From the NCBI GenBank assembly GCA_963790205.1, contig CAWBNQ010000001.1, forward strand, positions 1,088,001-1,152,000: a DNA stretch of 64,000 bases, in the 5' to 3' direction. The notes under the pieces are model-generated. The model made no database searches. It was given only the letters and a program-made list of their open reading frames with translations, and was not told the origin of the DNA. Numbering within the stretch: the stretch's first letter is position 1; every line of letters starts with the position of its first letter. Positions 1,651-21,884 of the stretch are shown piece after piece. The stretch comes from Nitrospirota bacterium (lineage in GTDB: Bacteria > Nitrospirota > UBA9217). The position numbers and the translations under genes are program-made.

Positions 1651-1801
1651 ATGTACATCGCAAATACGAAAACATGGTATCTAGAAAGGTTCATCCGGCT
1701 TTTTGCCGGCATCTTCGTGTTCGGAAGCGTGCTCCTGGGACAGCTTGTCCATCCCGGATGGTTCTATTTCACGGGCTTTGTCGGCATTATGATGACGATT
1801 T
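1651..1801 (+). pseudogene. 5' part of a DUF2892 (YgaP-like) membrane protein gene interrupted by the Tn7-like element
   Basis: MYIANTKTWYLERFIRLFAGIFV...GFVGIMMTI then runs into the transposon end; the remainder is at 21810-21884. Confidence 0.88.
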
Positions 1802-1980
1802 TGTCAGTACCACTAAATAATGAGACTGAATATATCTCCCTCCAAAGACAAACTAGCTGAATAATAAAGAAAAAATCAGCTCACGGATTTTCCCTCTCCC
1901 GCGCAAAAAATACCAATATAAAACGAGAATTATCAATATAAAATGACTTAAAAATCAAATTATCAAAATAAAATAATATA
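1802..1980 (+). repeat. tnsA-proximal transposon end with repeated TnsB-binding-like sites
   Basis: CCACTAAATAATGAGACT at the terminus, then CCAATATAAAACGAGAAT, TCAATATAAAATGACTTA, TCAAAATAAAATAATATA at about 1913-1980. Confidence 0.75.
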
Positions 1981-2026
1981 ACCTTGCTACCTTGCGCATT
2001 TCTCATTTGGCGGCTATACTTTGAGC

Positions 2027-2680
2027 ATGCCAAGACGTAAAATTCCAAGGAATTACAGGTCAGAAACCGGGCGGTTTCCGAGTATCATAAACGGTCGCTC
2101 CGTGGCGTACGAATCGTCGCTTGAGCGAGATTACTTCCACTGGCTAGAATTCGAGGACGACGTCCTATCCTACGAAGAACAGCCGTTGCATATTACTAAA
2201 AAGAAAGGCCGAAAAACCATCCAGCATTATCCGGACTGTCGTGTCTGCTATAAAGAAGCCAGCGGAAGAAAGCCAATGATAGTGGAGGTCAAGTACAAAA
2301 AGGAGCTGGAAAAGAAGGAAGAAAAGCTGGAGGAAAAGCTGGCCATGACCAAGGAGTTCGCACGTGAGAACGGAGAAGATTTCACGGTTATAACGGAGGA
2401 CGATATCCGCGGCGTATATCTCGAAAACCTGAAGTTTATATACAAGTACGCCAAACCGTATCCCGCTTTTCATCAACACAAGGCGTTCATTTTGGAAAAC
2501 AAGGTTGTAGACGGGCCGTTGAAGGTAAGCGAGCTGTTGAGCACCTTGACCACCGACAGGTTAAGGCAAGCGGAGTTGCTTCGGGCTATTTGGCACATGG
2601 TGTTCACAAAAGAGGTTGCAATCGATTTACATGAGAAAGTGACGATGGATTCCATCGTGGAGATACGCTGCAGCGCATAA
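2027..2680 (+). CDS. tnsA: TnsA-like endonuclease (heteromeric transposase subunit)
   Basis: YESSLERD, YEEQP, HYPD...IVEVK PD-(D/E)xK motifs and C-terminal winged-helix-like segment; alternative TTG start at 2021. Confidence 0.9.
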   Translation: MPRRKIPRNYRSETGRFPSIINGRSVAYESSLERDYFHWLEFEDDVLSYEEQPLHITKKKGRKTIQHYPDCRVCYKEASGRKPMIVEVKYKKELEKKEEKLEEKLAMTKEFARENGEDFTVITEDDIRGVYLENLKFIYKYAKPYPAFHQHKAFILENKVVDGPLKVSELLSTLTTDRLRQAELLRAIWHMVFTKEVAIDLHEKVTMDSIVEIRCSA

Positions 2681-2726
2681 AAATCCTATTAGCCCAGGTA
2701 GAGCAAATGCAAAAGGAGCCAACGAC

Positions 2727-4670
2727 ATGTCTATTGTGAATTATAAAGCTGGCAATATCGTCTACCTGGGTAATGATCAATACGAAATCCTCAAACCGGT
2801 CAGCCTGAGGGACGTGCTCGCAAAGAGCGTCGCCACCGGCGTGCAAAAGGTCCTGCCTGTTTTAAGCCTCCGGTCCGCCCCCCTATCCGTAGAAAACGGC
2901 GATACCAAGACGCCGGTCGAACACGTGGACGAGGATCATTGGGACGTGGCTGTGCACCGTCACAAGATAATAAAACCGCTCCTTGAGGCGCCGCACCTTA
3001 CAAGGGCAATGGTCATCAAGGTTGCCAAGCAATGGGGCTTATCGCCTTCCACAGTTTATCGACACCTCAGCATGTTTAAGACAACCGGAACGGTAAGCGC
3101 CCTGGTTCCCAAGTTCGACTTAAGGGGGAAAGGTACGTCCAAACTCCCTCCGGGTACGCTTGCGATCGTAGAAGACATGAAAGATAACTTCTACCTCAAT
3201 CCGACGAAGGAACATCCGAAGCCTACGATTAAGGAGTCCTACTCTGAGATCAAGCAGCGTTGCAAAACGGCCGGCGTGAGGATCCCCGCCAAGGGAACCG
3301 TCTACTCCCTATTCGGGAAGATACCGGCGAGTGACCTGGCGAAACGCAGGGAAGGGAAGTCGGACAGCGGAAACAAGTTTTTGGCCAAACCTGGAAAGTT
3401 CCCGGGCGGCAATTACCCACTTGACGTTATCCAGATAGACCATACCCCTTTAAATGTGATGGTCGTCGATGAAATCTACAGGGAGTCGATCAAGCGACCT
3501 TATCTCACCGTCGCAATCGACGTCAACTCGAGAATGGTGTACGGCTACTATATAGCGCTGGAAAAACCCAGCTATTATTCCGTGTCCCAATGCATTACGA
3601 TCGGGATCCTGCCGAAGGATCAGTTCCTCCGATCCATAAGCGTTGAAGGGCAATGGGACATTTGGGGGAAGCCAAGGCTTATTTTAGCTGACAACGCTTG
3701 GGAATTTCAGGGCCAGGAGATGACCCGGGTCTGCGCGGATCACGACATTATTCTTGAGTGGACGCCGGTGAAAAAGCCAGAGTACAAAGCCCACATAGAG
3801 CGACTCTGCGGAACGCTAAGCGAGAAAATCCGCAGGCTGCAAGGAGCCACGTTCGCTTCGATAGAGGAGAGAGGCTCGTATGATTCGGAAGAAGAAGCCG
3901 TCATGACCATGGCAGAACTCGAGAAGTGGTTCGGCAACATGGTGGTGAACGAGTACCACAACGATATACACACTGGCATCGGCATGACCCCGAAACGAAA
4001 ATACGAGATGGGCATCCTTGGAGACGGGACAACGCCCGGGGTCGGCCTCCCCTCCGCGATCGAGGACGAGGATCAGCTTCGCATCAGCCTTTTACCCTTC
4101 GAGGAAAGAGTCGTCCAAAAGACCGGTCTATGGATAGAATGCATCCAATATTGGAGTGATACTCTCAAAGATTGGGCCAACGTTAAAAACAAAAAAAGTA
4201 AGAACGGCAAGTATATCATCAAAATAAACCCGAAGAGCATGAAAATAGTTCATTTTTACGACCCGGAACTGAAGAGATATTTTCCTGTGCCTTACAGGGA
4301 CATAAGCAAGCCGGACATGACGATTTGGGAATTAAGGGACGCCAAGGCGTACCTTAAAAAACAGGGCATCGAACACTATGACGAAGCGAAGATATTCGAA
4401 GCCGTCACAATAGGCAAGAAGATTGCTGCAGAAGCTACGGATAAAACGAAACAGGCGAGACGCAAGGCGGCAGCGAAGAATTTCCACGACAGGAAACTCA
4501 AGGATGAGCGAAGCAGCGTGGCCGCATCGCGTGGGAAAGATGAAAGCGGCATCGCCGCAGCGACCCCGGAGGAAAAGGCCATCGAATTAAGTCTCGATGA
4601 TCTTTATAGGGATATCAAGCCTTTTACGGGAATCAAAGTTATACCTAAAAAAGAGGATGACAAAAAATGA
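2727..4670 (+). CDS. tnsB: TnsB/TniA-like DDE transposase
   Basis: HTH (GLSPSTVYR), QIDHT, AIDVNSRMVYG, ADNAWEF, KAHIERLCGT integrase-core motifs; Mu-transposase-like C-terminus. Confidence 0.93.
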   Translation: MSIVNYKAGNIVYLGNDQYEILKPVSLRDVLAKSVATGVQKVLPVLSLRSAPLSVENGDTKTPVEHVDEDHWDVAVHRHKIIKPLLEAPHLTRAMVIKVAKQWGLSPSTVYRHLSMFKTTGTVSALVPKFDLRGKGTSKLPPGTLAIVEDMKDNFYLNPTKEHPKPTIKESYSEIKQRCKTAGVRIPAKGTVYSLFGKIPASDLAKRREGKSDSGNKFLAKPGKFPGGNYPLDVIQIDHTPLNVMVVDEIYRESIKRPYLTVAIDVNSRMVYGYYIALEKPSYYSVSQCITIGILPKDQFLRSISVEGQWDIWGKPRLILADNAWEFQGQEMTRVCADHDIILEWTPVKKPEYKAHIERLCGTLSEKIRRLQGATFASIEERGSYDSEEEAVMTMAELEKWFGNMVVNEYHNDIHTGIGMTPKRKYEMGILGDGTTPGVGLPSAIEDEDQLRISLLPFEERVVQKTGLWIECIQYWSDTLKDWANVKNKKSKNGKYIIKINPKSMKIVHFYDPELKRYFPVPYRDISKPDMTIWELRDAKAYLKKQGIEHYDEAKIFEAVTIGKKIAAEATDKTKQARRKAAAKNFHDRKLKDERSSVAASRGKDESGIAAATPEEKAIELSLDDLYRDIKPFTGIKVIPKKEDDKK

Positions 4671-5581
4671 CGACGATTACTGATACACATATTGATACGC
4701 TTCTTCCTGAAACGAGACAGGTACTCGATCAAGACGATAAGGAACGGATTACGTACATCGAACAAGTGAAGTGGATTCCCTACCCTCAGGCAAATGGAAT
4801 TTTGGACAAGATGGAAGAGCTTTTAACCATACCCAAAAGGACGCGCATGCCATCTTTTTTACTAACAGCGGACAGTCACATGGGGAAGACGAGCATAGCG
4901 AAGGAGTTTGTTAGAAGGCATCCTCCTTCAAACGGCCTGCACGCGGATGCTCACCCCGTTATTTTAGTCGATGCTCCGGACGGACCAGATACTGGCTGGT
5001 TTTATGACAAGATATTCGAGTATCTGTCCGTGCCAGTGAGGACGAGGGACAAGGTCTCAAAAAAAGAAGCCGAGGTGAATTATTACTTTAAGAAGCTAGA
5101 CGTTAAAATGCTCATGGTCGACGAAATACACAATATCCTGAGCGGGCCTAGGACCAGGCAGAGCCTGTTTATGAATGCCTTGAAGGGAATGAACAACCGG
5201 TTGGAGATACCCATCGTCTTGATCGGCACACAAGACGCCAGGAGGGCGATCACTACCGACAACCAAATCAGCAGTAGATTCCCTCCTATTACCCTTTCCC
5301 GGTGGAAGATAGACAGGGATTATCTTTCGATGCTCGCAAGCATAGAGGTGACGCTGCCGCTCCGTAAGCCGTCTGTATTGGCCTCGCAGGACCTGGCGCC
5401 GGATATCCACGACCTCGCCGAGGGACTGACGGGAGAGATATTCTCTTTGATCAATCAAGCGGCGATTATTGCCATTAAAAGGAAAACTGAAAGAATTACG
5501 TACGCCGAAATCAAGGCATGTAACTTTATAAAACCGTCGCAACGAATTGCGGAGTCCACGTTGGCAGGGGTAAGTGAGTGA
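4667..5581 (+). CDS. tniB: TniB/TnsC-like AAA+ ATPase
   Basis: WIPYP, RMPSFLL, Walker A-like ADSHMGKT, Walker B MLMVDEIHN, QISSRF; ATGA overlap with tnsB. Confidence 0.92.
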   Translation: MTTITDTHIDTLLPETRQVLDQDDKERITYIEQVKWIPYPQANGILDKMEELLTIPKRTRMPSFLLTADSHMGKTSIAKEFVRRHPPSNGLHADAHPVILVDAPDGPDTGWFYDKIFEYLSVPVRTRDKVSKKEAEVNYYFKKLDVKMLMVDEIHNILSGPRTRQSLFMNALKGMNNRLEIPIVLIGTQDARRAITTDNQISSRFPPITLSRWKIDRDYLSMLASIEVTLPLRKPSVLASQDLAPDIHDLAEGLTGEIFSLINQAAIIAIKRKTERITYAEIKACNFIKPSQRIAESTLAGVSE

Positions 5582-6779
5582 TGTGATGCGTGGCGTTTAT
5601 CACGACCGGATTGCGGAGGGTAGATTTATTATTAGGTTGGACCCTCTCGAAGACGAGTTGCTGAGCTCGTGGCTGGTGCGCGAGGCTTATGCCCACATAA
5701 CCAGCCCGTTCACGTTTGTTAACCGGCACTTCCCTAAATTAAGTTATGTTTTTTGGACCAGGGATATTGACCTCTCAGCGGCTGACGAAATGCTCGATGT
5801 TTTATCGTTCAAGAGCGGCGTCAGCCGCGAATTACTTTATAAGCTCACCTTGAGATCGTATGAGAGGTATCTCGACGAACATATCGCAACTCATGCGGCC
5901 AACCACCTTATTCAACCCCTGGGTTACCTAAGCTACTATAAAGGAGCAAAGGCGAAACACGGGTTGAGTTTCTGTCCAATCTGCCTTCGTGAAGACGAAA
6001 CGCCATATTTCAGAAAAAAATGGAGACTCACGTTTTCTACCGCGTGCATCATTCATGGCTGTTTCTTGATGGATCGTTGCCAGAAATGCGGCTCGCCGGT
6101 GAAGTTTTACAGGAGTTACTTTGATGGGAGTTTTTCCTATTGTCATAGGTGTGGAGAGGATTACAGGAAAGCTATTCCGGAGCTTGTAGGACCTGATACG
6201 CAGGGGCTGCAAGCTATCAAGCAATTGTACAACATATTAGATTCAGGATGTTTTCAATTTGCAGACCGTTATATGTATTCGCCTCTCTTCTTCGATATAT
6301 TGCGGCAGATTATTAAAATCGCTTGTCATCGGAAGAAAGGTCGGGTTATTTTTGATAAAGATATAAGCACGGTTACTGGGGAACAAATTGGAAACCATTG
6401 CAGATGTAAATATATTTTTGACTATCCGTCAACAATACGCCATTCTATCTTTGCTGCGGCGATGAATGTGCTGCACCGATTCCCGGAAAGTCTTGCAAAC
6501 TTTTTCGAGGCCAACGGCTTGAAAAAGACTGATATCCTCAAGGACCTTAAGTATGTTCCTTATGAGTATTCCGCGATCGCAGATCAATTTGACTATGATG
6601 AAAAACCTATTGTGTTCGATGAAGTCAAAAGCGCGATCGGATACCTTAAAAGAAGAAATAAAAACGTTCACAAGCAGCAGGTTGATGAGTTAATGGGAGT
6701 GCGTCTTCATTTAAAAGGTCAAAGAAAAGATATTAGGAAGCTATTCAAGAAAAAAGGACGTTACCGCATTGCAGCGTGA
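5574..6779 (+). CDS. tniQ: TniQ/TnsD family target-selection protein
   Basis: PLEDELLSSWLVR N-terminus; zinc-finger FCPIC...WRL...CIIH...CQKC...CHRC; about 200 aa C-terminal extension. Confidence 0.9.
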   Translation: MSDVMRGVYHDRIAEGRFIIRLDPLEDELLSSWLVREAYAHITSPFTFVNRHFPKLSYVFWTRDIDLSAADEMLDVLSFKSGVSRELLYKLTLRSYERYLDEHIATHAANHLIQPLGYLSYYKGAKAKHGLSFCPICLREDETPYFRKKWRLTFSTACIIHGCFLMDRCQKCGSPVKFYRSYFDGSFSYCHRCGEDYRKAIPELVGPDTQGLQAIKQLYNILDSGCFQFADRYMYSPLFFDILRQIIKIACHRKKGRVIFDKDISTVTGEQIGNHCRCKYIFDYPSTIRHSIFAAAMNVLHRFPESLANFFEANGLKKTDILKDLKYVPYEYSAIADQFDYDEKPIVFDEVKSAIGYLKRRNKNVHKQQVDELMGVRLHLKGQRKDIRKLFKKKGRYRIAA

Positions 6780-7228
6780 CCTTTTTTACAGTAAATGCTG
6801 GCTCCATCACGGGCGTTTCTGAAAGGGTCACGCGTATCAGTCATGCATATCCGCAATCGTTCCGCTGTTTTTCCGATCCTGAATGTATTTCTCCACTTTT
6901 TATCCACTCCAAGAGTATTGGTATCGCACCTTCGTGCTACCAAAAATCTCCGTCACATATTTGCTTTCTTCTAACGATGACCATACGGTGGTCTTATTGT
7001 ATTAAGGAACCTTTATATCAAACAAGAAGGCACGGTTTTTATCTTCTTCTAATCAGAGCTACGATTTTGGAATTAACTTGCTGATAGGTAAACTATAGGT
7101 TTTATTTAATAAAGAGAAACAGGCAGGTGGTTAGATGTTTATCCAAGGAGCATAAAAAAATGATACTTGACAATTAGACGTAAATCGTACTATTATAGTA
7201 TAAATAAATACAAAAAAGAGAATTAATA

Positions 7229-7441
7229 ATGGATAATAAAATACAAAAAATAGTACATTTAGGTACAGAAAAACTGCAGGGAAGTAATCGGGTGCAATTG
7301 CCTGGCCCAGTTCTAAAAAATTTAGATCTTCAACATAAGCAGAAAATCGAGTTTTATTTGAATACAGCCACATGGGAAGTCATACTTAAGCCGGTTAAAA
7401 GAAGCGGAAATAACAATGACAAAGCAAAAAAAAATAAATAA
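7229..7441 (+). CDS. Small putative AbrB/MazE/SpoVT-like DNA-binding protein
   Basis: NRVQLPGPVLKNLDL..KQKIEFYL....EVILKP resembles a swapped-hairpin fold; TTGACA-N18-TATTAT upstream (7167-7196). Confidence 0.55.
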   Translation: MDNKIQKIVHLGTEKLQGSNRVQLPGPVLKNLDLQHKQKIEFYLNTATWEVILKPVKRSGNNNDKAKKNK

Positions 7442-7528
7442 ACAGCATTTGGCAAGCGATCACACATGGAAAAACTCGTATCTGCTCTGTCCTTGGATAA
7501 GCCTGACCTGTAAAACGAGGCAATCATT

Positions 7529-8734
7529 ATGATAAAAATTGATCAGGAAAGTATCCAGTTGTTATCGAATGCTATTCATGATGTGCAGCCCGTAGGCGGC
7601 CTTACGCATTCGTTCTACAGGTATCCAGCTAGATTTTCTCCTCTTTTTGTGCGGGCTGCTATAAGGATATTTAGCAAGCCTGGTGAGGTTGTTTATGACC
7701 CCTTTATGGGAGGAGGGACTACAATTGTAGAAGCCGTAGCCTCTGGTCGACGCGCCATTGGAACTGACATAAATAGTCTAGCTGTATTTATTGCGAAGGT
7801 TAAAACGACACCGATAACGGATGACGACCTTTCGATAATGCGCTCTTGGCTTTTAAACTGTCAGGAGGGGCTTAATTTACATCGAGCGGCAATACGCGCG
7901 TCTGAATGGATTGAACTCGGATATCAAAGAAACATTAGTGGGAAAAAAACTTGGCCAATTAGGAAGATACTTGAACTGGCCTTAGCACAAATAAGCATCT
8001 TGCCAAAAACTAGCCAGCAGAACTTTGTGAGGTGCGTATTGCTGCGAACGGCACAGTGGGCGATTGATTGTAAAGAGGAACTGCCTTCTGCAAGTGAATT
8101 TCGACGAAAGTGTCTTCAGTTTTTTGAAGAAATGGCGGATGCTGCGAGCGAGCTTCGGCAATTAATTAAAAAAGGCAGAAAAGATTCGAACGGCTTAGCT
8201 TTTGAAAAGCCAATATGTTTGAATAGATCTGCCGCGGGGATTGAGACGGTGAAGAGCGTTAAAAAATATATACCACCACGATTAATATTAACATCACCAC
8301 CTTATCCCGGCGTTCATGTTCTCTATCATCGCTGGCAAGTTAATGGTCGAAAAGAAACACCCGCTCCATACTGGATTGCGGGCTCTTTAGATGGGAATGG
8401 TGCTGCTTATTATACTTTTGGAAGTAGAAGGGAAGAATATCTTCAGACATATTATAATCAAGCACGAACTGTATATTCCTCACTTGCTAAAATTGCGGAT
8501 AAAAAAACAACATTGATTCAACTTGTTGCTTTTTCTGATCCTTCCTGGCAGTTGCCAGCTTTCCTTGAAGTATTGCAACAAGCAGGATTTTGTGAAATAC
8601 AAGTACCTAATAATTTAAAAGATAATGACGAGCATGTTTGGCGCCAAGTGCCCAATCGCAAATTCTATGCAAGCCAAAAAGGTAGCATTACTGCAAGCAA
8701 GGAATTATTATTGATTCATAGACTTCGCTATTAA
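7529..8734 (+). CDS. Amino-DNA methyltransferase (probably N4-cytosine, alpha motif order)
   Basis: HSFYRYPARF, motif I DPFMGGGTT precedes motif IV TSPPY. Confidence 0.88.
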   Translation: MIKIDQESIQLLSNAIHDVQPVGGLTHSFYRYPARFSPLFVRAAIRIFSKPGEVVYDPFMGGGTTIVEAVASGRRAIGTDINSLAVFIAKVKTTPITDDDLSIMRSWLLNCQEGLNLHRAAIRASEWIELGYQRNISGKKTWPIRKILELALAQISILPKTSQQNFVRCVLLRTAQWAIDCKEELPSASEFRRKCLQFFEEMADAASELRQLIKKGRKDSNGLAFEKPICLNRSAAGIETVKSVKKYIPPRLILTSPPYPGVHVLYHRWQVNGRKETPAPYWIAGSLDGNGAAYYTFGSRREEYLQTYYNQARTVYSSLAKIADKKTTLIQLVAFSDPSWQLPAFLEVLQQAGFCEIQVPNNLKDNDEHVWRQVPNRKFYASQKGSITASKELLLIHRLRY

Positions 8735-8909
8735 TGGTCTCATAATCGACTCGACTCATCACGAGTTGAATATCGTTATTCTTGCGGCGATTCTGAGCGT
8801 GAAGCCAGCCTTCGTCATGCGTAATCTGCATTCCAGATAGGAACGGTCGGTAATAACGGCCGATGATATGTACAAACAATTGTGAGAATATTAATAGGCG
8901 TATTGTCCT

Positions 8910-11432
8910 TTATGTGGCTTCACCTGAAACATTTTTTGGGAGGCTACTTTCCAAATCCAAATCACCAAGTGAGTCAATCATGGGAACAATAATTGGAGCA
9001 ATTGCCTTGCTAACCATTTCAACTCTTTGCTCAATACTTTCCTGTGGAGAACGCTCTCTAGTTGTCTCCTTGTCGGCTTCAGTTTTTTTCCTATCTTGAA
9101 CGTCTTGCTGTAATAGCGCGAGGCCAACAAGTACTAGACCATATTTAAAGCGCGCTCTAATAATCTCGGGCTCTTCCTGCCCTGCGGATTTTAATTCCGT
9201 TTTTAAATATAAATTATCCATGTTAATAAAAAAATCATAGATATCAGGTCCGTCAGGATCATCTTCTGCCGCATCTTGTTTACCTGCATTTACGATTCTT
9301 AGTGCTGAATATTGGTCGAAATTATATTGAGACCATTCGGCTTCAAAAATTGGTATAATATTTGGCATTTGTATGCCAGAAGGGATCTCTCGCTCTTGTC
9401 CTTCCTTGTTACTCGGCGGCTTTGGGGGCCGAGGATTGCTAGGTTTAGGTAGCTTGTCAAGTTCCTCTAGTACGTTAACCGAGAACTTATTAATAAATGG
9501 TTCGATACGCGATGGATCGTTAACCCTAGATACAAACTGTAAAACTTGTCCAACGTAAACTCCCTCTGGTTGTTTAAAACTGAGAGTTGCAATGCCATTT
9601 TGAAGATTAACAATGCGATTATGGACTGGAACTGAAATATCCTCGCTTTGATCTAAAAGTGATAACTCAAATTCACCGGTATCTACATCACGGCTAAAGT
9701 AGTCATTTTTGGCATCCGTCTCGAACAAAATTCTACAACGCATATTTATATGACACCCTCGTTCTAATTCGACGGTGTAATTTTTCCCCTTAAATTTGAA
9801 ATAAGATGGAAATTTTTTTCCTTCATAAGGTTTTTCCTCAGACTGACTCTTTAACGTCTTAAAAGGGATAGAGAGACGCTTTCCTTGTAGAAACAGCGCT
9901 GAGAGGATGGGGGAGTGTTGTAAAAGATTTTCAAGAATATTCTCAAGAGGCTTTGAATCGTCGAGTTTAGCGGCTATCTCTTCCCGACGTCGGCGCTCTT
10001 TAAGCTCACGAAGACCATCATGGCTTTTAAGCAAGTCTTCAAGTGACTGTTCGATTTCGCTTTTTAGTTCCACACCGCTAAGACGATCTCGGCTATTCAT
10101 AAAGAGATCTTCACGTGAACGTCCACTCAACTTGCTGCAATCGATAGTAACGAGTAATGAATCGGCAAGATATGAAAGGCCAACTTTTTTTCTAATAAAA
10201 AAATCCGTCGTTAAATGACCATGAGTTTGTCCGTTCATCACGAAAATAATGCCTTCATTTTTTCGATAAGTTTCGGCCCGCCCCTTTTTAAATGCATAAA
10301 TCGTCACCATCATTTCTTCACCCATAACATTCATTTGTGCCGATGCTGGAAAGTCGGGTTCGAGATTTTCAGCCTTATCATCCTCCAACCTAACCTTAAT
10401 TCCGGTCAGTGTTGTGTCAAAACTGCCTGTATGGCCGGCGTACGCTCGGCATTCATGCAAACGAATTGGCAATGCAATATCTGGTAATAGGAGATCTATG
10501 CGGTATAAGATTCCGTCTTTCCGAAGGATATGAGATTTATAATATCCAGTCGCGGCATATTCAAATAATTTTATTAACGTACCCCAGGACGATTCTCGTG
10601 AATAGGCGTTTTGTCCATCAGGGAAAATGGGTAAAGATTTTGACTCGAAAGATAATATATTACCCCTATTAGAGCATTTATCGGCATCTATGGGGGCAAG
10701 ATAGGTATAAGTTGAACTACGACGATTTCCTTCCGGATCTTCTCTTCTAACGATTGTAAACCCCCACTGCATATCTCTAGACGTGCACGAATCGGTATTT
10801 AATAAGGCGGGATTGCGTTTGCTTACAATTAATTCTAAATTGCGTTTTCCACAAAACTTCAAGACGCCCGTACCACCCATGTTGAATTTGCCTTGAACAA
10901 ACGGAATTCTAAGCTTGTTAGAGCGATTAAGAGAAAGAAGCGTGTTTGGCATAGCGTCTGGAGTTTGCCCTTCACCACTGTCAGAAATAGTAAAGCAAAG
11001 ATTGCCTACCTTCGCAGTAGCACCTGTTGCAGCAAGTGTAATTCCACGTGAAATCTCTGTACGTTTCGACGGAGACCATTCTCTTATTAGTCCCGCATGT
11101 GCTGCGATCGGATTTATTGCCGATTCGAAGAAGAGAGCAACAGCCTCTCGTATTGTATGCGGGGCTTTTGACCCCTCAGGGTCTATTTTATGGACGAGAC
11201 ATTCATTCATGAGTCTAGCGTCTACGCTGTTTACTAGTTTTTCAACAAGTGCAGCGTCAGGCTTGCTTTGCTGATTGCCCATCGTGTTATAGTTACTTTC
11301 ATAGTCCCCGTAGAAACGCCAACATTCATGTCTATCCCAAAAACCTGCCTTTTGCAGAAGAGCAATAACTTCCGTTTCAGAATCAGACGTTATCAGCGTC
11401 AAACAAAGGGTTTTAAGTTCTTCGTTGTTCAT
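8910..11432 (-). CDS. Large GHKL (MutL/MORC-like) ATPase domain protein
   Basis: N-box EKLVNSVDA, G1 ISDSGEG, G2 QGKFNMGGTG, later WGTLI; long uncharacterised C-terminal region. Confidence 0.75.
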   Translation of the reverse strand: MNNEELKTLCLTLITSDSETEVIALLQKAGFWDRHECWRFYGDYESNYNTMGNQQSKPDAALVEKLVNSVDARLMNECLVHKIDPEGSKAPHTIREAVALFFESAINPIAAHAGLIREWSPSKRTEISRGITLAATGATAKVGNLCFTISDSGEGQTPDAMPNTLLSLNRSNKLRIPFVQGKFNMGGTGVLKFCGKRNLELIVSKRNPALLNTDSCTSRDMQWGFTIVRREDPEGNRRSSTYTYLAPIDADKCSNRGNILSFESKSLPIFPDGQNAYSRESSWGTLIKLFEYAATGYYKSHILRKDGILYRIDLLLPDIALPIRLHECRAYAGHTGSFDTTLTGIKVRLEDDKAENLEPDFPASAQMNVMGEEMMVTIYAFKKGRAETYRKNEGIIFVMNGQTHGHLTTDFFIRKKVGLSYLADSLLVTIDCSKLSGRSREDLFMNSRDRLSGVELKSEIEQSLEDLLKSHDGLRELKERRRREEIAAKLDDSKPLENILENLLQHSPILSALFLQGKRLSIPFKTLKSQSEEKPYEGKKFPSYFKFKGKNYTVELERGCHINMRCRILFETDAKNDYFSRDVDTGEFELSLLDQSEDISVPVHNRIVNLQNGIATLSFKQPEGVYVGQVLQFVSRVNDPSRIEPFINKFSVNVLEELDKLPKPSNPRPPKPPSNKEGQEREIPSGIQMPNIIPIFEAEWSQYNFDQYSALRIVNAGKQDAAEDDPDGPDIYDFFINMDNLYLKTELKSAGQEEPEIIRARFKYGLVLVGLALLQQDVQDRKKTEADKETTRERSPQESIEQRVEMVSKAIAPIIVPMIDSLGDLDLESSLPKNVSGEAT

Positions 11433-11466
11433 AATTTGTTTCTCCTTTTATGAGTAAACAATATCT

Positions 11467-14288: not shown

Positions 14289-15389
14289 ATACAAACGCAC
14301 TAAGTAATGTTACAAAGTCGCCTGACTTTGTGCTTTGACCACGAGTCAAGCGTCCTTTGGACCGTTGCCCAGATTGCGTCAAGGTTATCGAACCACCGGT
14401 TGGTGGTTGATTCGTAGCGAATCTGTCGCCATATCCGTTCCTGCATATTCAAAGCAGGCTGATAGGGAGGTAAGTACACAACCCGGAGTCGTTTATGCTT
14501 TCGGAGGAACTCCCGGATCGGATCACCCCTATGCCAACGAGCTCGGTCAACATACAGCCAGATAGTGTAGCCACGAAGCTGGCTATAAAGGTGCCGCAGC
14601 GCTTTGAGAAAGCCTTCTCGGTTGCCGCGTTCCGTTTGGATCACTCCGGCACGACCCAGAAGAGGAGCCACCCAGCCGGAAACATTCAAACGTTTCTGAT
14701 GCTGGCTGGTTGTCGGAACTTTGTGTCGTTTTCCGATAAGCGCCCAGACGCGCCCAAGTCGAGGGTGCAGAGTAAAGCCGCATTCGTCCTGAAAAACCAC
14801 GGTTTCTTTAGGACCCAGCGTTTTGAGTTTTTTTTAGGCTCCTGGCGAATTTCTTCGCGTCTTCTGCCTTCGCCTGGAGATAAACGTGATTTGCACGTTT
14901 TAACCGATACCCAAGTTGATGCATCCAGTATTGGGCCTGACGGACTTTCAGCTTTATCCCGAACCGGCGCTGTAAATGGGTTGCCAAAGTGGGGCCATCC
15001 CATCGAACACGATTTAAGCCGAACTTCTGGGGCGATTCCTCCAGTTGAAGCTCTAGCTGAGCTACAATCTTAGGGGTCATCCGAACTGGACGGCCTGACT
15101 GCTTTTTCGGGACAAGGGCTTCTACTCCGTCCTTGTTTACCGCCCGCGTCCAGCGGTTTACGTTCATCCGGGTCTGGCCGAGGACCTCTGAGATCCACCC
15201 CGGTCGTTGCCCTTCCAGCACCAAGAGAAGGGTTGCTATCTTAATGCCGATCCAAGCTCCTGGCACCTTCTCTGCAAGTGCCAGTAATTGCTCTTTGGAC
15301 ACCTTGATTGGGCTTATAGGGGCTGTTTTCATGCCCCCAGCATAACATAAACGAAGATTAAAGTGTAACAATATTTACTGCGTTTGTAT
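14289..15389 (-). mobile_element. IS630-family insertion sequence, copy 2 (1101 bp, diverged isoform)
   Basis: Same IRs as copy 1; TA duplicated (14287-88, 15390-91); several substitutions versus copy 1. Confidence 0.93.
14300..15332 (-). CDS. IS630 transposase in two frames joined at an A8 tract
   Basis: Same motifs as copy 1; A8 run at 14828-14835. Confidence 0.9.
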
Positions 15390-16699
15390 TAGTAATTACG
15401 CAGCTTGGGTGAAAGAAAAGGAAAAAGTCGATCACGAGAATACGGACCGAGAAAAAACCTACCAAGGCTATTTAGAAAAATGGGAATCTGAGAAAAAAGC
15501 GTTTCTTGAAAAACAAAGGGAAACTAACAATGCTGTCGATAAGCGGAAGGAATTGTATAACAGCAAGGCACCGGACGCGGTTGTCGACTACTGCGAGCTC
15601 GTTTTATCCAATTCCGAATATCCTGACTATTTCCCCAAAGAGTTCGATTTGGACTACAATACTGAGACAAAGATCCTGATCGTAGAGTACTCTCTTCCTT
15701 CGGTTGATGACATCCCGAAAGTCAAAGAGGCCAAATACGTCAAATCCCGGAATGAGCTTGTTGAATCTTTACTATCGGAATCGGTCGTTAATAAAATATA
15801 CGATAGTCTGATTTATCAAATTGCTCTGCGGACAATACATGAGCTTTATGAGGCAGATACTGTGACAGCTCTACCCTCCATTGTTTTTAATGGCTGGGTA
15901 GAATCTATTGACAAAGCTACCGGGAAAAAAGTAAACGCATGTATCATCTCCGTACAGGCTATGCGAGAAGAATTTCTTGCCATCAACTTGGATAATGTCG
16001 ATCCAAAGGCGTGTTTTAAGATTCTCAAGGGAGTCGGCAGCTCCAAGCTCCATAGTTTGACTCCGATCGCGCCGATCTTGAATATCAACCGCGACGACAA
16101 ACGGTTTATTTCCTCGTATCCGGTGGTCGATGGTCTGGACGAGTCAAGCAATTTAGCGGCAATGGATTGGGAGGATTTTGAGCATCTGATTCGTGAGGTA
16201 TTCGAAAAAGAGTTTTCACAGTCCGGCGGAGAAGTAAAAGTGACGCAGGCGAGTCGAGACGGAGGGGTCGATGCAATCGCGTTCGACCCTGACCCTATCC
16301 GCGGGGGGAAAATCGTGATCCAAGCCAAGCGTTACACGAATACGGTCGGCGTTTCAGCGGTACGCGATCTTTACGGGACTGTTATGAACGAAGGAGCAAC
16401 CAAGGGTATTCTTGTGACTACGGCGGATTATGGTCCGGATGCTTATGATTTTGCAAAAAGTAAACCGCTGACCTTACTTAACGGCAGCAACCTTTTGCAC
16501 TTACTAGAAAAGCATGGCCACAAAGCCACTATCAACTTGAAAGCTGCCAAACAGATACTCGCGGAACAGGAGAAGGCGAATTGAGTAAGCAATTGACATT
16601 TGGTCATTCATCGTTAAAACTTGCGATGAATGACTCAGTAAATATATTAGGGGGAATAGGCTTACTATCGCACAATTAGGTTGAGAGAGGAGTCCTGCC

Positions 16700-17035
16700 A
16701 TGTCTGATGAAGAGAATAAGTTAGTCGGACCAAAAACGTTTGCACCGCCAGCAAAGGGCGATGATGAAATAGATTTCTCATCATTTTTCCAATATTTGCA
16801 AAGTCAGCAGGGACATGAGATGGCCTCTCGCGTGATCGGTTTGATAGAAGATGTTAAAAAGGCGGCAGTCGATAAGAGCTACTCAAATGTAAAGTTTAAT
16901 CGCTGGATGGAAGCTGGCATCATTGTCGTTGTTATTACAGCCACGGTTTTGCTGAGCATTCTAGATAAGCTCACACCTACCGTTGGTATTTTGTTCGGTT
17001 CTATTGTCGGATATTTCTTTGGTAAAAATAAATAG
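16700..17035 (+). CDS. Small hypothetical protein with two C-terminal TM helices
   Basis: GAGGAG RBS; hydrophobic stretches WMEAGIIVVVITATVLLSIL and VGILFGSIVGYFFG. Confidence 0.75.
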   Translation: MSDEENKLVGPKTFAPPAKGDDEIDFSSFFQYLQSQQGHEMASRVIGLIEDVKKAAVDKSYSNVKFNRWMEAGIIVVVITATVLLSILDKLTPTVGILFGSIVGYFFGKNK

Positions 17036-17067
17036 AGAATTGACCTTATGCCCATTAATTCTACAGC

Positions 17068-18834
17068 TCAAATACAGTTCTTATCGGATATTCTTCTCAA
17101 CAGCTCTTCGCACCATCTGACATAGAAATTATCTTCTTTTGAGGATGGATGTATTTTTGTGTCAAATGTTATTCCTATTTCTTTGAGGTCATTAATGGTA
17201 TCCTCATGCTGTACTTCATCTACAAACCTTTTAACCACCATCATCGCATGCTTCTGGGGATGGGGCAATTGCTCATCTGCAAATAGTAAATACGTACCGG
17301 GGCCATTCGGAAGTCCAGTGTGATCAATTTCAACCAGACAGATATTTTTGCCAGAGTAATTAAAAATCGTTGTTACAAACGTGCGTCTGCTGTCATGACT
17401 TTTATTATAACTTTCCTTGAGAGACAGTAATCCTCTCGCCTTCCGGGTTTTTTTCAATGGGATATCTCGGATGAGAGACATCTCAAAGTTGTGGACATCT
17501 GCATGCTCGTTGAGAAATCCTGTCATATAAAAAAAATCTGCGATGTAGAAATCTTCTCTGCTTCCATTGTTTGGTTCAGTCTGCTTATCTGAGACATCCT
17601 TATCTAGTTCATTTTCTCTTTGATCATTCTCCTGCGATTCCATAGATGCCGGCCTAGTGTCGCTAGCTCCATCAGTGCCTTGCCCGATAACACTTATCTC
17701 GACAGCCGGCCCCATGAGCCTGATAATGGGGAGAACCTCATTCTTGACGGTCGGTTGCTTTCCCTCTACAGTTCCATCGATGATTTTCATTCGCAAGATA
17801 TGTGTATTTGTAATTTTTGTCGAAGGTTTAATCGAAATGGGACTTAAGCGTGAGGTCGGTTTTTTATCGTTTAGTTGTTTCTTTGTAGCCCTTTTTTTAA
17901 TTACGACTACATTACCGTCGCTGTTTTGTTGTTTGTCTGGGTTTGTTTTCTTAGGGAAAGAGATCGTGTCAAAATCAAATTGGCTGTCATCGTCCAGGAT
18001 TTCGAATACGAGTACTTTGTCTTTGCGTAGAGCGGTGTCTTGTAACCAAAGTCCTCTGATTTGCATATGGATTGTTTGCCAAATAGGAAAATCGATTTCG
18101 AGGGGAACGATATTTGACAAGTCGCCCTGTAGCTCCATATTTTTTTTCATTGCCAAAAGGCTTTTATGAACGGCGAGCCACCTTGCGTATGCAAATGGAT
18201 TCTCTTTAAATCTGACAATATGCGGCGCGTCACTTTTGGAGGCGCCTGGCTTCAAATGAACGAAAGCAGTACGTTTTTTGCGATCAAGCTTGATGTCCTC
18301 ATAAAGACCGTCAAGTTTCATCGAAAAAATCTGCCTTCTCATTGAGCTGGAAGTGAAATAATAACATGCGCCGATGACGGCGCATGGAAAAATAATCAGT
18401 TGGTAGTCGTCTTCGAATACAACACAACGCTGGTTCTTATTATACTTTGAAAAATCAAAGTAGCCGTTCATTGTGCGAAACCATTGATTGAGTTTATATT
18501 CGTCGTCTGATAAAACATCCGATATTTTAACAATATGGTTATTATCAGTGGCTTCTATGGTAATGGGATGAATTTCGCCGAGAGGAGGGATTGATTTTAC
18601 CAGTTTTGTGTCCTTGTAATGTTGGCCGATAGCATAATGTCCGTGAAGAAATTCCGGGAAAATGTCCTCGGTTAAGTATATCCCCGAGTCTATATCTTGA
18701 AACAATACCTTGTAAAAGTTGTTGCCTGCGGTCGCATTGATTCCCTGAATACAAAGAAGACGGAATGTCCGATGCTTATGCTTATCACTGGACATCTTGG
18801 GGGTTTTTATGGAATCCAGGTCGATTTGAGTCAT
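17068..18834 (-). CDS. tnsE: Probable TnsE-like target-selection protein
   Basis: 588 aa with two domains and a low-complexity linker; IIFPCAVIGACYY in the N-domain and RRTFVTTIFNYSGKNICLVEID..TYLL in the C-domain resemble TnsE; lies inside the Tn7-like element. Confidence 0.5.
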   Translation of the reverse strand: MTQIDLDSIKTPKMSSDKHKHRTFRLLCIQGINATAGNNFYKVLFQDIDSGIYLTEDIFPEFLHGHYAIGQHYKDTKLVKSIPPLGEIHPITIEATDNNHIVKISDVLSDDEYKLNQWFRTMNGYFDFSKYNKNQRCVVFEDDYQLIIFPCAVIGACYYFTSSSMRRQIFSMKLDGLYEDIKLDRKKRTAFVHLKPGASKSDAPHIVRFKENPFAYARWLAVHKSLLAMKKNMELQGDLSNIVPLEIDFPIWQTIHMQIRGLWLQDTALRKDKVLVFEILDDDSQFDFDTISFPKKTNPDKQQNSDGNVVVIKKRATKKQLNDKKPTSRLSPISIKPSTKITNTHILRMKIIDGTVEGKQPTVKNEVLPIIRLMGPAVEISVIGQGTDGASDTRPASMESQENDQRENELDKDVSDKQTEPNNGSREDFYIADFFYMTGFLNEHADVHNFEMSLIRDIPLKKTRKARGLLSLKESYNKSHDSRRTFVTTIFNYSGKNICLVEIDHTGLPNGPGTYLLFADEQLPHPQKHAMMVVKRFVDEVQHEDTINDLKEIGITFDTKIHPSSKEDNFYVRWCEELLRRISDKNCI

Positions 18835-18936
18835 AATTGAAAAAATTGGTTTTCGGTGGGCATATTATAATAATATTGTAGCCATTGTAGCTAGTTTATT
18901 ATCAGAAATTTTATCGTTATTACAAAATCACTTTTT

Positions 18937-20064
18937 TTAAATAATCAACCGAATTAAATGAATAAGTCTTCGTAATATATTAGAAGAATCATTGACACAA
19001 TAGACCGATACTTGCTTCCGTACTTTAAACCCATCTTCAATGCTTCCTCTTGTACATTTATGCTCGCCTACTTTTCCCAAGGTTGGTTTAAGGCAAGGAG
19101 GATCACAATTAAAGAAATATACTATTATGTGCAATAAAAGTGCGCCGAATGTAGTTAAATAAAATCCTATGAAGAACCAAAGAATTAGGCAATAATAAAA
19201 TATGTCGTGTTTGAAGCCATAATGGCGTGCACAGCAAATATATATGCATAGGCAAATAACACCAATACAACAATCGACCCACTTAGGATACTTTAAATAA
19301 TCATCACCTTCGTTTGTATAAATAATGAAACCGCTTTTTTCAAAAAGCTTTCTGGTTTTCCATAAATAATAATGCAGTAATTTCTTTACAAAAAAAGCGC
19401 TTGTCAGAATAAATATCGGGAAACTAAATTCCCAATTGGCCGAAAGCGTGGATTGATCCAATTCAAAAAAATGATGTACTACGAAAAACCCGAATATTGA
19501 GTTTAGTACCATTAGCCATATAGATGCCCAATATAGCGGTCCGAATTGGTCGGGAATCACCAGGTCGGGATCTAACTTATTATTAAGGCCGATATATTCT
19601 TCTTTGACAAAAGAATCATGAATAAGGTTTTGATATTTGTCTTTAAAGACCTTAAGATTGTTGTCGCCACTGTTAAATATTTTTTCAATCACTGCCGCTC
19701 TACCTTGAATGTACCTAAAAAGGAATCCATGCGATAAAATGTATTCGGATAACAGCCAGAGGATTATGTTACCTACAACACAAATAGCGAAGGCAAAATA
19801 GACCTCATTGCCGTCTATATGTAAAGACGTTAACGCCGACGAAAAATTGTAGTCTCCAATTAATGGAAATGTGCCGAAATTAGTTAGCCGTTTGAAGTCC
19901 TCAATAATGAATTTATAGGCTAGTGCAATAGCTGAAATTGCTACAATGAAATGCCATTTTGCTTTGAGTAGGTCGTCACTTATCTTGTTTAAATCATCCA
20001 GTAAACTTTTATGTTCGCTGATTAAAAATTCTCCAGACTTATCCCACATTTTATTCTCCGACAT
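18937..20064 (-). CDS. Hypothetical multi-pass membrane protein
   Basis: 375 aa, AT-rich, about six hydrophobic segments. Confidence 0.7.
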   Translation of the reverse strand: MSENKMWDKSGEFLISEHKSLLDDLNKISDDLLKAKWHFIVAISAIALAYKFIIEDFKRLTNFGTFPLIGDYNFSSALTSLHIDGNEVYFAFAICVVGNIILWLLSEYILSHGFLFRYIQGRAAVIEKIFNSGDNNLKVFKDKYQNLIHDSFVKEEYIGLNNKLDPDLVIPDQFGPLYWASIWLMVLNSIFGFFVVHHFFELDQSTLSANWEFSFPIFILTSAFFVKKLLHYYLWKTRKLFEKSGFIIYTNEGDDYLKYPKWVDCCIGVICLCIYICCARHYGFKHDIFYYCLILWFFIGFYLTTFGALLLHIIVYFFNCDPPCLKPTLGKVGEHKCTRGSIEDGFKVRKQVSVYCVNDSSNILRRLIHLIRLII

Positions 20065-20245
20065 TTGATCGACACTTTCCTGATAGCGATAATTCAGTCA
20101 TTGTAAAATGTTATTTCCCCCGATTCAGTAACACGGGGGACTGAAAATACGTTCTTAGCATATACTGGCCTGCATATATACTTATAAGTGGGCGTTCTCA
20201 CCGTCTTGGCCGAGCCTCTCGGTCGCTGCTGCACAACGTTATTGC

Positions 20246-20917
20246 TCAAACACGATCAAGCCAGTTCAGGTCGAAAAGGACGGGAAACCCGCAGGACTGG
20301 ATCGAGCAGAAGATCGGGAAGTCCTTCTCCGGGCAGAACACGAAAAGAACCTCCCTATGCTTGAATGAGAAGTCGCCCGGATAGCGCCACTCTCGTTCGT
20401 GCGTCGCATCGAAGCTCTCGGTAATGATGTTCACGAACGGCTGCAGATTATAAGGAATGAAGTTGTATACCCTGCGTTCAAATCGCTCGCCGGCAAATGT
20501 AACTTTCTCCTTGAGCAGGGATTCTCTGATGTTAAGGCACGGGTTTGCGCCACGCTCAAACAAGAAGTCCCGGTCAAATGCAAGCCCATACTGCGCATGG
20601 AAGACATCTCGGTGCGCCTTCAGCCCTGACAGGGTACTTTCAGTAAAGCAGACTGCATGCGAGTCGATCGGACCGTCAAACTCACCAGTTTCGGGGTCGA
20701 ACACGTTGGGGTTCACCCTGCTGTACCACCCCACTGCGGATGCCCCGAGGTAGGGCCTTGGGGGGGTGCTCCCTATGGCCAAGATTGAAAGAAGGTCGCT
20801 CTTGGCCTCTGCGTCGCTTAGGCCTTCGTTCTGACGGATCAGATGCGTCAGTAGAAAGGAGCAGTCGGAGCTAAGGCGAGCCAGTTCTTGAGCGGTTGCT
20901 GCATTGGTCTTCGACAT
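20246..20917 (-). CDS. AbiGi-like (abortive infection family) protein
   Basis: LTHL, VCFTES, YGLAF, GANP, HEREWR motif series. Confidence 0.65.
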   Translation of the reverse strand: MSKTNAATAQELARLSSDCSFLLTHLIRQNEGLSDAEAKSDLLSILAIGSTPPRPYLGASAVGWYSRVNPNVFDPETGEFDGPIDSHAVCFTESTLSGLKAHRDVFHAQYGLAFDRDFLFERGANPCLNIRESLLKEKVTFAGERFERRVYNFIPYNLQPFVNIITESFDATHEREWRYPGDFSFKHREVLFVFCPEKDFPIFCSIQSCGFPVLFDLNWLDRV

Positions 20918-21200
20918 GACCTGGAGCCCTCCAATCGTTTGCTACCATTCTTTTTCTTTGCGGACAGTGATTTTCAGGAAGCAGTCTCTACTGCAAAACT
21001 ATAGCATAAAAAGGTGATTTCATAAAGGATTCATCGATAATCACTTAGCTGCGGAGCCTTGCAAATAACGGCTTTAGTGAACACCACGAGTTGATTTTGA
21101 TTGCAGGGACTTCTCGACTACCAGAACTGCGCAGAAAACAATCCAGTTCCGCATGCTATAATGAGGTTACGACGAAGACGACTATGCTAAAAAGGCTATC

Positions 21201-21476
21201 ATGGGACGGACATCTATAGACATACGGGAGCTTAAGCGCCGATTGAGCCATTACTTGCGGCTGGTCAAGGCAGGGGAGTCCGTAGAAGTCAGCGACCGCG
21301 GGACGCCGATCGGCTGCATTATTCCGATGGCTTTACCAATAGCAGACCGTATAAAAGCATTGGATAAAGCCGGTCTACTACAGTGGAATAACCACAAACT
21401 CAAGCCTATGACGCCTATCGCGCTGACCCGGGGTAAGCGCACTGTTGCTGATCTACTGATTGAGAATCGTAAATGA
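21201..21476 (+). CDS. Phd/YefM family antitoxin (no adjacent toxin)
   Basis: IDIRELKRRLSHYLRLVKAGESVEVSDRGTPIGCIIP. Confidence 0.85.
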   Translation: MGRTSIDIRELKRRLSHYLRLVKAGESVEVSDRGTPIGCIIPMALPIADRIKALDKAGLLQWNNHKLKPMTPIALTRGKRTVADLLIENRK

Positions 21477-21559
21477 TCGAGCATCATTGGTGTCTGAAAC
21501 AGATGCATAAAGCTATTTTCCCATGTAATTGCAAGGCGTTGTGCATTATTTAACTTCAA

Positions 21560-21590
21560 TTATTGGATTTCAATAATTGAAATCCAATAA
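21560..21590. repeat. Perfect 15-bp inverted repeat with 1-nt spacer
   Basis: TTATTGGATTTCAAT-A-ATTGAAATCCAATAA. Confidence 0.9.
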
Positions 21591-21742
21591 AATCACTTCA
21601 TCAAGGGGTTCACACCCGCGACCACCAAGTTAACAGCCGAATCCAACTCATCAAGCTCGTATTCCACTTGCTCCATTCGTCTTCAGTAGTAAACAAAAGT
21701 AAACCAAATGAACACTGGAAAAACTCAGGGCTTTATTGCCAC

Positions 21743-21808
21743 TATCACTTTATTTTAGGATTAGTCTCATTATATTTTGTACAGTCTCATTTTATTTTGG
21801 AACTGACA
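21743..21808 (-). repeat. Distal transposon end with three closely spaced TnsB-binding-like sites
   Basis: Minus strand TGTCAGTT-CCAAAATAAAATGAGACT-GT-ACAAAATATAATGAGACT-AAT-CCTAAAATAAAGTGATA. Confidence 0.85.
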
Positions 21809-21809
21809 A

Positions 21810-21884
21810 ATTTTTGCCTTGACAGGTTTCTGCCCCATGAGTATTATACTGTACGTTTTCGGGGCACGAGAGCGGTGTAAATGA
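21810..21884 (+). pseudogene. 3' part of the interrupted DUF2892 gene
   Basis: IFALTGFCPMSIILYVFGARERCK* carries the family's GFCP motif and is in frame with 1651-1797. Confidence 0.88.

What the first reader, a model, noticed from the sequence alone, without database searches (positions are those of the whole stretch)
1651..21884. Complete Tn7-like transposon inserted inside a DUF2892 gene, a non-canonical target site
Seen: both ends are present, and removing 1802-21808 plus one copy of the 5-bp flank restores a 73-aa ORF (...GFVGIMMT-IFALTGFCPMSIILYVFGARERCK*). The ORF track hides this because the 5' half reads 19 codons into the transposon end. Known: TnsD/TniQ pathways usually insert harmlessly next to conserved genes (glmS, tRNAs), or disrupt comM in Tn6022-like elements. 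Inference: this is either an unreported attachment site read by the 401-aa TniQ, or a TnsE-type/untargeted insertion. No cas genes or CRISPR array lie inside the element.
Basis: partly seen in the sequence, partly recalled or inferred. Interest (0 to 1): 0.75.

Follow-up and report, generated by a model that had tools for sequence, protein, structure and literature searches.

The report
Stray landing of comM-type transposon
A complete 20-kb Tn7-family transposon splits a small membrane-protein gene, but most of its relatives sit in the competence gene comM and none was found in this gene, so this is likely a one-off landing steered by its TnsE-like protein and not a new attachment site; the relatives lack the TnsF helper that known comM transposons need and likely reach comM with TniQ alone.

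Summary
In detail: 1802-21808 is a complete Tn7-family element (tnsA, tnsB, tnsC, 401-aa tniQ) splitting a 73-codon YgaP/DUF2892 gene; near-identical contigs in two public runs hold the empty site. One correction: the 5-bp flanks differ (GATTT/AATTT). The unannotated 588-aa gene near the far end is a remote TnsE (fold Z 11.2). The flank does not resemble the comM site, and this genome's comM site is empty. Best reading: a one-off, likely TnsE-guided landing of a Tn6022-like element. What is new is the lineage: it hits the Tn6022 spot in comM with no tnsF (0 of 10 genomes) and has a TniQ with a helix-turn-helix-like tail. I found no paper on that; this scan noted TnsF-free comM elements before on other DNA. 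A weak 10-of-12 motif shared with the sister element's flank leaves a drifted TniQ specificity open.

The parts
1651..1801 (+). 5' piece of host YgaP-like (DUF2892) membrane-protein gene, codons 1-50
   Evidence: PF11127 E 2e-5; 63-78% identical intact orthologues in 20 family loci
1797..1801 (+). Target 5-mer, left copy (GATTT); matches the empty site
   Evidence: empty-site contigs in runs X1, X3
1802..21808 (.). Complete Tn7-family, Tn6022-like transposon, 20,007 bp
1802..1990 (+). tnsA-proximal end: TGT terminus with one clear terminal TnsB-type repeat and further AT-rich repeats at about 1919-1978 (inner limit approximate)
2021..2680 (+). tnsA
   Evidence: PF08722 E 1.8e-15, PF08721 E 2.9e-10
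2727..4670 (+). tnsB, DDE transposase, 647 aa
   Evidence: rve, Mu-type domains; trees
4667..5581 (+). tnsC (TniB-type AAA+ ATPase), 304 aa
   Evidence: PF05621 E 1.4e-65
5574..6779 (+). tniQ, 401 aa; TniQ core plus a predicted helix-turn-helix-like tail (residues about 346-401); no tnsF follows it
   Evidence: PF06527 E 1.1e-25; model pLDDT 80.5; Z 15.5 to 9bw1_J, tail Z 4-4.8 to TetR-type HTH; TnsF profile finds nothing in this genome
7229..7441 (+). 70-aa ORF, also behind tniQ in L057/L058 (36%); no family
7529..8734 (+). Cargo: N6/N4 DNA methyltransferase
   Evidence: PF01555; MTase_II
8910..11432 (-). Cargo: 840-aa protein, GHKL/HATPase-like lead only
   Evidence: no Pfam hit; Atlas neighbours carry HATPase_c_3 in 26-30% of members
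11920..12603 (+). Cargo: HhH-GPD / endonuclease III-like glycosylase
12735..16584 (+). Cargo: Mrr-type (type IV-like) restriction nuclease gene, interrupted by two IS630 copies
   Evidence: PF04471, mREase_IV E 2.8e-68 on the 3' piece; pieces between the IS copies
12959..14064 (-). IS630 copy, 99.8-100% identical to copies elsewhere in this genome
14287..15391 (-). Second IS630 copy, 94% identical to the first
17068..18834 (-). Remote tnsE, 588 aa, on the opposite strand near the far end
   Evidence: seven best Foldseek rows are TnsE C-terminal domains; Z 11.2, rmsd 3.4, 138 aligned to 5d16_A, next row 6.7; a homologue found with this profile is labelled tnse in the supplement of PMC10293859
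18937..20064 (-). Cargo: 375-aa hydrophobic protein, no family
20246..20917 (-). Cargo: AbiGi-like protein (lead)
   Evidence: Atlas score 0.97, PF10899 in 59-75% of members; no direct Pfam hit
21201..21476 (+). Cargo: lone Phd/YefM-type antitoxin
   Evidence: TIGR01552 E 1.7e-8
21745..21808 (-). tnsE-proximal end: three tandem TnsB-type repeats, ACA terminus
21809..21813 (+). Target 5-mer, right copy (AATTT), one letter different from the left copy
21814..21884 (+). 3' piece of the host YgaP-like gene, to the stop codon

Best explanation
[quoted passage not shown] Shown: the ends, the split gene, the empty site in close strains, the TnsE fold, comM as the usual site of the relatives, no comM-like sequence beside this insertion. 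Inferred: TnsAB cut the element out and joined it with a 5-bp stagger; TnsE recruited TnsC at lagging-strand DNA, as described for Tn7 and shown on a plasmid for Tn6022; one copy of the duplication later changed or was mis-called; a host IS630 then jumped into the cargo. In the lineage as a whole TniQ, through its helix-turn-helix-like tail, likely reads comM directly; that route was not used here.
For: Of 22 related loci with a mapped end in this TnsF-free clade, 17 lie in comM, 17-23 bp from the G-E-[IV] codons on the tnsA side (L069 by its far end), and 5 at unrelated places: DUF815 ATPase gene (G034), SAM methyltransferase gene (G343), a Tn3-type transposase gene (L073), two non-comM spots (L065, L088). 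Neither half of the host gene hits any of 71 related loci. L088 has a TnsB nearly identical to comM-seated L038/L039/L078, so one element type uses both kinds of site. G034 and G343 are complete elements with perfect 5-bp duplications in hosts with no intact comM, where 54 of 66 good relatives have comM. The tnsE profile matched in 9 of 11 carrier genomes tested. The window flank scores like random DNA against a matrix of 17 comM sites (p 0.56-0.89; this genome's comM site p < 0.001). In G000, G034 and G343 the tns genes lie on the G-rich (inferred leading) strand, as an orientation bias would give (bias described in PMC5371812, passages). Tn6022 TnsE drives untargeted insertion into F (PMC11014353 section 16). 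One clade member lies on a plasmid.
Against: No test separates TnsE from TnsABC alone. The orientation count is 3 of 3 long flanks (1 in 4 by chance); short flanks gave two in the same sense (L088, L073) and one opposite (L065); G343's tnsA-side flank has no skew; I did not verify which orientation TnsE favours. The site is about 0.7-0.8 Mb from the inferred origin on C1 and the dif-like match is on another contig, so it is not at the terminus. This genome has an unused, high-scoring comM site, which needs explaining. The window and its sister G034 share 10 of 12 letters 13-14 bp out from the insertion (p 0.01-0.16, seen by eye first). The 22 loci are not independent (three Campylobacter concisus, three close Campylobacterota-like loci). 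Within the two genera comM is patchier (7 of 12, 5 of 8), which weakens the 'no comM in host' point.
Confidence: 0.6

Rival explanations
1. Untargeted insertion by TnsABC alone, with no selector involved.
For: Tn6022 TnsABC alone gives low but real transposition outside comM (PMC11014353 section 16). The flank has no comM likeness and is not at the terminus.
Against: [quoted passage not shown]
Confidence: 0.2
2. TniQ-guided insertion at a look-alike site: in the sub-branch of the window and G034 the TniQ tail has drifted and reads a short motif, AAT(G/C)CCG(A/G)CAAA, related to the comM P-G-E codons, so it lands in different genes at a fixed distance.
For: Window and G034 are sisters in the TniQ tree (100) and group with L061 in TnsB (99) and TnsC (85); both are off comM and are the only 2 carriers among 64 genomes of the class. 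Their flanks share 10 of 12 letters at 13 and 14 bp (p 0.013-0.046 with mild mismatch cost). G034's core fits the comM matrix at the right offset (p 0.004-0.06). The comM site here is unused.
Against: Post hoc, two sites; p 0.04-0.16 with a stiffer mismatch cost; the window's own core does not fit the comM matrix (p 0.18-0.27); wider matrices reject both flanks. By recall of Tn7, DNA 13-25 bp from the insertion lies under TnsC, not the selector. G034's host has no comM, so it had no choice.
Confidence: 0.15
3. A dedicated attachment site in YgaP/DUF2892 genes, read by the 401-aa TniQ.
For: The DNA round the site is well conserved among family orthologues; the TniQ has a DNA-binding-like tail.
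Against: 0 of 71 related loci have this gene beside them; 20 of 20 orthologue loci are empty; the sister element sits in a DUF815 gene; the gene is small, patchy (23 of 36 family genomes) and is destroyed by the insertion.
Confidence: 0.04

Closest known systems
Tn6022 / AbaR backbone of Acinetobacter (TnsABC + TniQ + TnsF + distal TnsE; PMC10293859, PMC11014353)
   Same: Gene order tnsA-tnsB-tnsC-tniQ; tnsE on the opposite strand near the far end; TGT..ACA ends whose first 50 bases resemble the published AjTn6022 LE by eye; relatives insert at the same spot in comM as TnsF-bearing elements in my set (19-20 bp), and L039's flank 5-mer ACCGC equals a duplication named in PMC11014353 section 15.
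   Different: No tnsF here or in 9 other carrier genomes; TniQ ends in a helix-turn-helix-like tail; TnsF-bearing elements form a separate branch in all three trees; this copy is not in comM; cargo is restriction/defence-type, no resistance gene seen in the scans.
Prototype Tn7 (TnsABC + TnsD at glmS + TnsE)
   Same: Heteromeric TnsAB transposase, AAA+ TnsC, a TniQ-domain protein with its own DNA-binding-like extension, TnsE with the same C-terminal fold (5d16).
   Different: TnsC is the short TniB type; no TnsD Pfam match; tnsE is not in the tns operon; neither this copy nor its mapped kin lie by glmS.
comM-targeting type I-B1 CASTs and Tsy (PMC9881144 passages; PMC10293859)
   Same: Converge on comM as a target.
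   Different: They use a crRNA or a tyrosine-recombinase TnsF; no cas genes, array or recombinase were found in this element.

Membership tests
Tn7 family | [quoted passage not shown] | tested here: met
   Pfam
Tn7 family | TGT...ACA ends with repeated TnsB sites | tested here: met
Tn7 family | 5-bp target-site duplication | tested here: inconclusive
   4 of 5 letters match; the empty site shows a 5-bp stagger; nine relatives have perfect 5-bp duplications
Tn6022 | Distal tnsE on the opposite strand | tested here: met
Tn6022 | tnsF (orf3) in an operon with tniQ | tested here: not met
   TnsF profile A3: 0 of 10 genomes incl. this one; controls hit G410 and L134, not in the alignment, at E 2.7e-71
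Tn6022 | Seated in comM | tested here: not met
   this copy is in a YgaP gene and the comM site is empty; 17 of 22 mapped relatives are in comM
Tn6022 | comM targeting needs TnsF-TniQ contact | not testable with these tools
   needs a transposition assay
CAST | cas effector genes and CRISPR array inside the ends | tested here: not met
Prototype Tn7 (glmS) | TnsD and insertion downstream of glmS | tested here: not met
   only PF06527 hits the 401-aa protein; flank is a YgaP gene
TnsE | C-terminal DNA-binding fold of TnsE | tested here: met
   Z 11.2, rmsd 3.4, 138 aligned; Foldseek E 0.0075 best, none under 0.001
TnsE | N-terminal PriB/SSB-like domains | tested here: inconclusive
   weak rows to RPA, SSB and PriB, Z 4.3-4.7
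TnsE | Sliding-clamp contact and lagging-strand targeting | not testable with these tools
   bench work

The most novel reading that the evidence does not exclude
A TnsF-free sister lineage of Tn6022 reads comM with the helix-turn-helix tail of TniQ alone, and in the sub-branch that holds this element that tail has been retuned to a short motif, AAT(G/C)CCG(A/G)CAAA, derived from the comM site, so the element now ignores an intact comM site and lands in unrelated genes: a protein target selector caught while changing specificity.
Probability: 0.12. Interest if true: 0.72.

Novelty: new variant of a known kind. Interest (0 to 1): 0.4.

Why it matters
The site itself is incidental, so it adds no attachment site to the Tn7 catalogue. 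The lineage matters more. Both papers that rebuilt comM targeting found TnsF essential (PMC10293859 section 12; PMC11014353 section 16). A clade across Nitrospirota, Thermodesulfobacteriota and Campylobacterota that hits the same spot with four core genes would be a second, simpler solution, and a compact single-protein selector is of use for integration tools. The off-site copies, two in hosts without an intact comM, are natural records of the fallback route on chromosomes.

Tried and rejected
DUF2892 as a shared target: no hit in 71 loci. comM look-alike at the window flank, either side: rejected by four matrix windows and short-core matrices; the L084 score is an artefact of a 12-bp flank and L084 was left out of the counts. 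G034's flank looked comM-like by eye; only the short core supports it. comM here reads in two frames near codon 116; not used as evidence, since 7 of 79 test genes show frame changes. Sequence search of the 588-aa profile against PDB found nothing; the fold search did. Viral contigs: no relative of TniQ or TnsE. Plasmids: no tblastn match to the TnsE; the ends of the plasmid copy L131 were not mapped. A 401-genome draw round G403 added one distant, TnsF-bearing element. Run X2 holds scattered 99% pieces of the element at depth 2-3, none across a junction: not used. The careful TniQ tree did not finish; quick and FastTree trees are cited, and warns that the window/G034 join in TnsB is between long branches. 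Metagenome loci L058, L061, L065, L073 could not be extended. Accessions and contexts of the closest proteins (P0001, P0002, P0004, P0014) could not be obtained, so their sites are unknown. Literature: no paper held ygaP+Tn7+insertion site or comM+transposon+TniQ+Campylobacter; DUF2892+transposon gave one unrelated listing; tnsF+comM+transposon gave three papers. Supplement file 1 of PMC10293859 is cut in storage and its figures were not seen; a comM ring on its trees could bear on the TnsF-free claim.
Full report
OBSERVATION. The element runs from 1802 to 21808. Both termini read TGTCAGT inward, the far end has three tandem 20-bp repeats, and GC falls to 43.8% against 54.8% in the window beyond it. 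Pfam names tnsA, tnsB, tnsC (TniB type) and a 401-aa TniQ. The ORF at 1651 matches PF11127 (YgaP-like, DUF2892; E 2e-5, just under the curated cut-off) and its missing 23 codons follow the far end. The 5' piece matched 34 of 61 genomes searched; the 20 best family loci (63-78% identity) all run through the junction with no insert. Two public runs of one study hold contigs nearly identical to the left flank that continue straight into the right flank, so the insertion is polymorphic among very close strains. The flanking 5-mers are GATTT and AATTT, not identical as implied; the empty site keeps the left form. This assembly shows frame changes in 7 of 79 test genes, so the one-letter difference may be noise or later drift.

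WHERE RELATIVES SIT. A 24-row TniQ alignment gave 26 genome loci and 45 metagenome loci, one more carrier with a strong match in the phylum (G343) and a plasmid copy. Neither half of the host gene matches any of the 71 loci. In TniQ, TnsC and TnsB trees the element nests in a clade of 25-31 rows (support 99-100; quick and FastTree methods) apart from the TnsF-bearing elements. I could map an end for 22 distinct loci of that clade besides the window; duplicates L063, L066, L075 were dropped, and 9 tree rows had no mappable end (L032, L057, L060, L061, L064, L072, L074, L080, L131). Seventeen lie in comM (L033-L040, L068-L071, L076, L078, L079, L090, L098), the tnsA end 17-23 bp from the G-E-[IV] codons. 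Both ends with a perfect 5-bp duplication were found for seven of them (G401-G406, L071). Five lie elsewhere: G034, the sister of the window (47% TniQ identity), is a 97-kb element in a DUF815-type ATPase gene (family label recalled from the translation); G343 is a 44.7-kb element in a SAM-methyltransferase-like gene; L073 is in a Tn3-type transposase gene (label recalled); L065 and L088 are at non-comM spots. These loci are not independent. L088's TnsB is almost identical to that of three comM-seated Campylobacter concisus elements. G034 has no comM match and G343 only a decayed remnant, while 54 of 66 good relatives have one; in their own genera it is 7 of 12 and 5 of 8. In the window's genome the comM site is intact and empty.

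THE SECOND SELECTOR. The 588-aa ORF at 17068-18834 has no Pfam hit, but its homologues lie on the opposite strand near the far end in 9 of 11 carrier genomes tested. Its model (pLDDT 67.7) matches the TnsE C-terminal domain: the seven best Foldseek rows (best E 0.0075) and Z 11.2 against 6.7 for the next fold. The homologue in FQZT01000005 has the coordinates that the supplement of PMC10293859 labels tnse, in an entry that lists no tnsf. This is the Tn6022 layout (PMC10293859 section 11 and methods passage).

NO TnsF. A profile from seven TnsF genes in my loci finds nothing in 10 of 10 carrier genomes, this one included, nor in the complete 12-kb comM element L071; it hits G410 and, at E 2.7e-71, L134, which is not in the alignment. 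Several of those genomes are drafts, and a far-diverged TnsF could be missed. The TniQ model (pLDDT 80.5) has the TniQ core and a tail at 346-401 that aligns with TetR-type helix-turn-helix domains at modest Z (4-4.8). That TniQ alone reads comM is therefore an inference (my odds about 0.7).

HOW IT GOT HERE. A matrix from 17 comM sites scores the window flank like random DNA on either side (p 0.18-0.99 over the windows tried) and this genome's comM site far above background. With no site likeness and an intact tnsE, the TnsE route is the simplest reading. For Tn7, TnsE favours replication forks with an orientation bias and also acts on the chromosome (PMC5371812, passages; PMC11406308, passages); for Tn6022, TnsE gave scattered insertions in F and TnsABC alone gave a low background (PMC11014353 section 16). 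In G000, G034 and G343 the tns genes lie on the G-rich strand; short flanks gave two for and one against. That is weak. The site is not near the inferred terminus (dif motif recalled). One result points another way: the window and G034 share 10 of 12 letters 13-14 bp from the insertion (p 0.01-0.16, post hoc), and they are the only 2 carriers in 64 genomes of the class, both off comM. That keeps a drifted TniQ specificity alive at about 0.15.

CARGO AND AGE. The cargo is defence-like: a DNA methyltransferase, a large ATPase-like protein (lead), an endonuclease III-like glycosylase, an Mrr-type nuclease, an AbiGi-like protein (lead) and a lone Phd antitoxin. The Mrr-type gene is cut by two IS630 copies; one is 99.8-100% identical to copies across this genome, so it likely entered after arrival.

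COMPARISON WITH WHAT IS KNOWN. It works like Tn6022 and is a Tn7-family member, but fails Tn6022 membership on tnsF, which PMC11014353 (section 16) calls universal in comM-seated Tn6022 of A. baumannii and both papers found essential. Papers seen: PMC10293859 (abstract, passages, sections 11 and 12, supplement passages; file 1 is cut and figures unseen); PMC11014353 (abstract, sections 15, 16, 20); PMC8649781, PMC11406308, PMC5371812, PMC9881144 (passages); bioRxiv 2025.07.27.667033 (term search, no occurrence); PMC5358917 (listing only). Searches showed no report of a DUF2892/ygaP site or of TnsF-free, CRISPR-free comM targeting; the library lacks most subscription papers. This scan's own notes describe TnsF-free comM elements in other genomes, at another comM position; I had reached the TnsF-free reading before looking and did not check those notes' loci.

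VERDICT. Real element, real split gene, incidental site. The lineage is a new variant of a known kind. Interest 0.4.

Noticed in passing
window 12735-16584: One Mrr-type nuclease gene is hit twice by IS630, 223 bp apart; the two copies are 94% identical, and only the first matches the copies spread through this genome.
   Followed up: partly
G000:C1 about 347685-349182: comM reads in two frames near codon 116; the attachment region is intact. Likely an assembly indel (7 of 79 test genes show the like).
   Followed up: partly
L070:2540-4357 and 6235-6315: A Tn7-like element in comM with only 26 codons of the 3' comM piece left, then a separate TnsF-like gene on the other strand: probably a Tsy-type element stacked in the same gene.
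   Followed up: no
L042:6465-7124 and L135:1-49: A comM 3' piece lies on the tniQ/tnsE side of the element, the reverse of the usual orientation; in G813 the 49-bp comM-like piece differs from the genome's intact comM.
   Followed up: partly
L044, L045, L089, L041, L046 TniQ frames: A neighbouring branch of comM-seated elements has longer TniQ frames (529-553 aa); no TnsF match in G411. Possibly a third way of reading comM.
   Followed up: no
L131:14312-21140 (Nitrosophilus labii plasmid pHRV44): Two tnsA-tnsB pairs in tandem before tnsC-tniQ, with a weak TnsE match at 31800-33368; ends not mapped.
   Followed up: partly
L075, L076, L079, L098: An extra gene lies between the transposon end and tnsA (end 550-780 bp upstream of tnsA).
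   Followed up: no
L029 (G034) and L027 (G035): The YgaP orthologue is broken by small indels or stops in these genomes, without a transposon: the gene looks dispensable.
   Followed up: no
G034:C1 about 1469658-1566800: The sister element carries about 90 kb of cargo between tniQ and tnsE; not examined.
   Followed up: no
window 21201-21476: Phd-type antitoxin with no toxin ORF of 60 aa or more behind it on the same strand inside the element.
   Followed up: no
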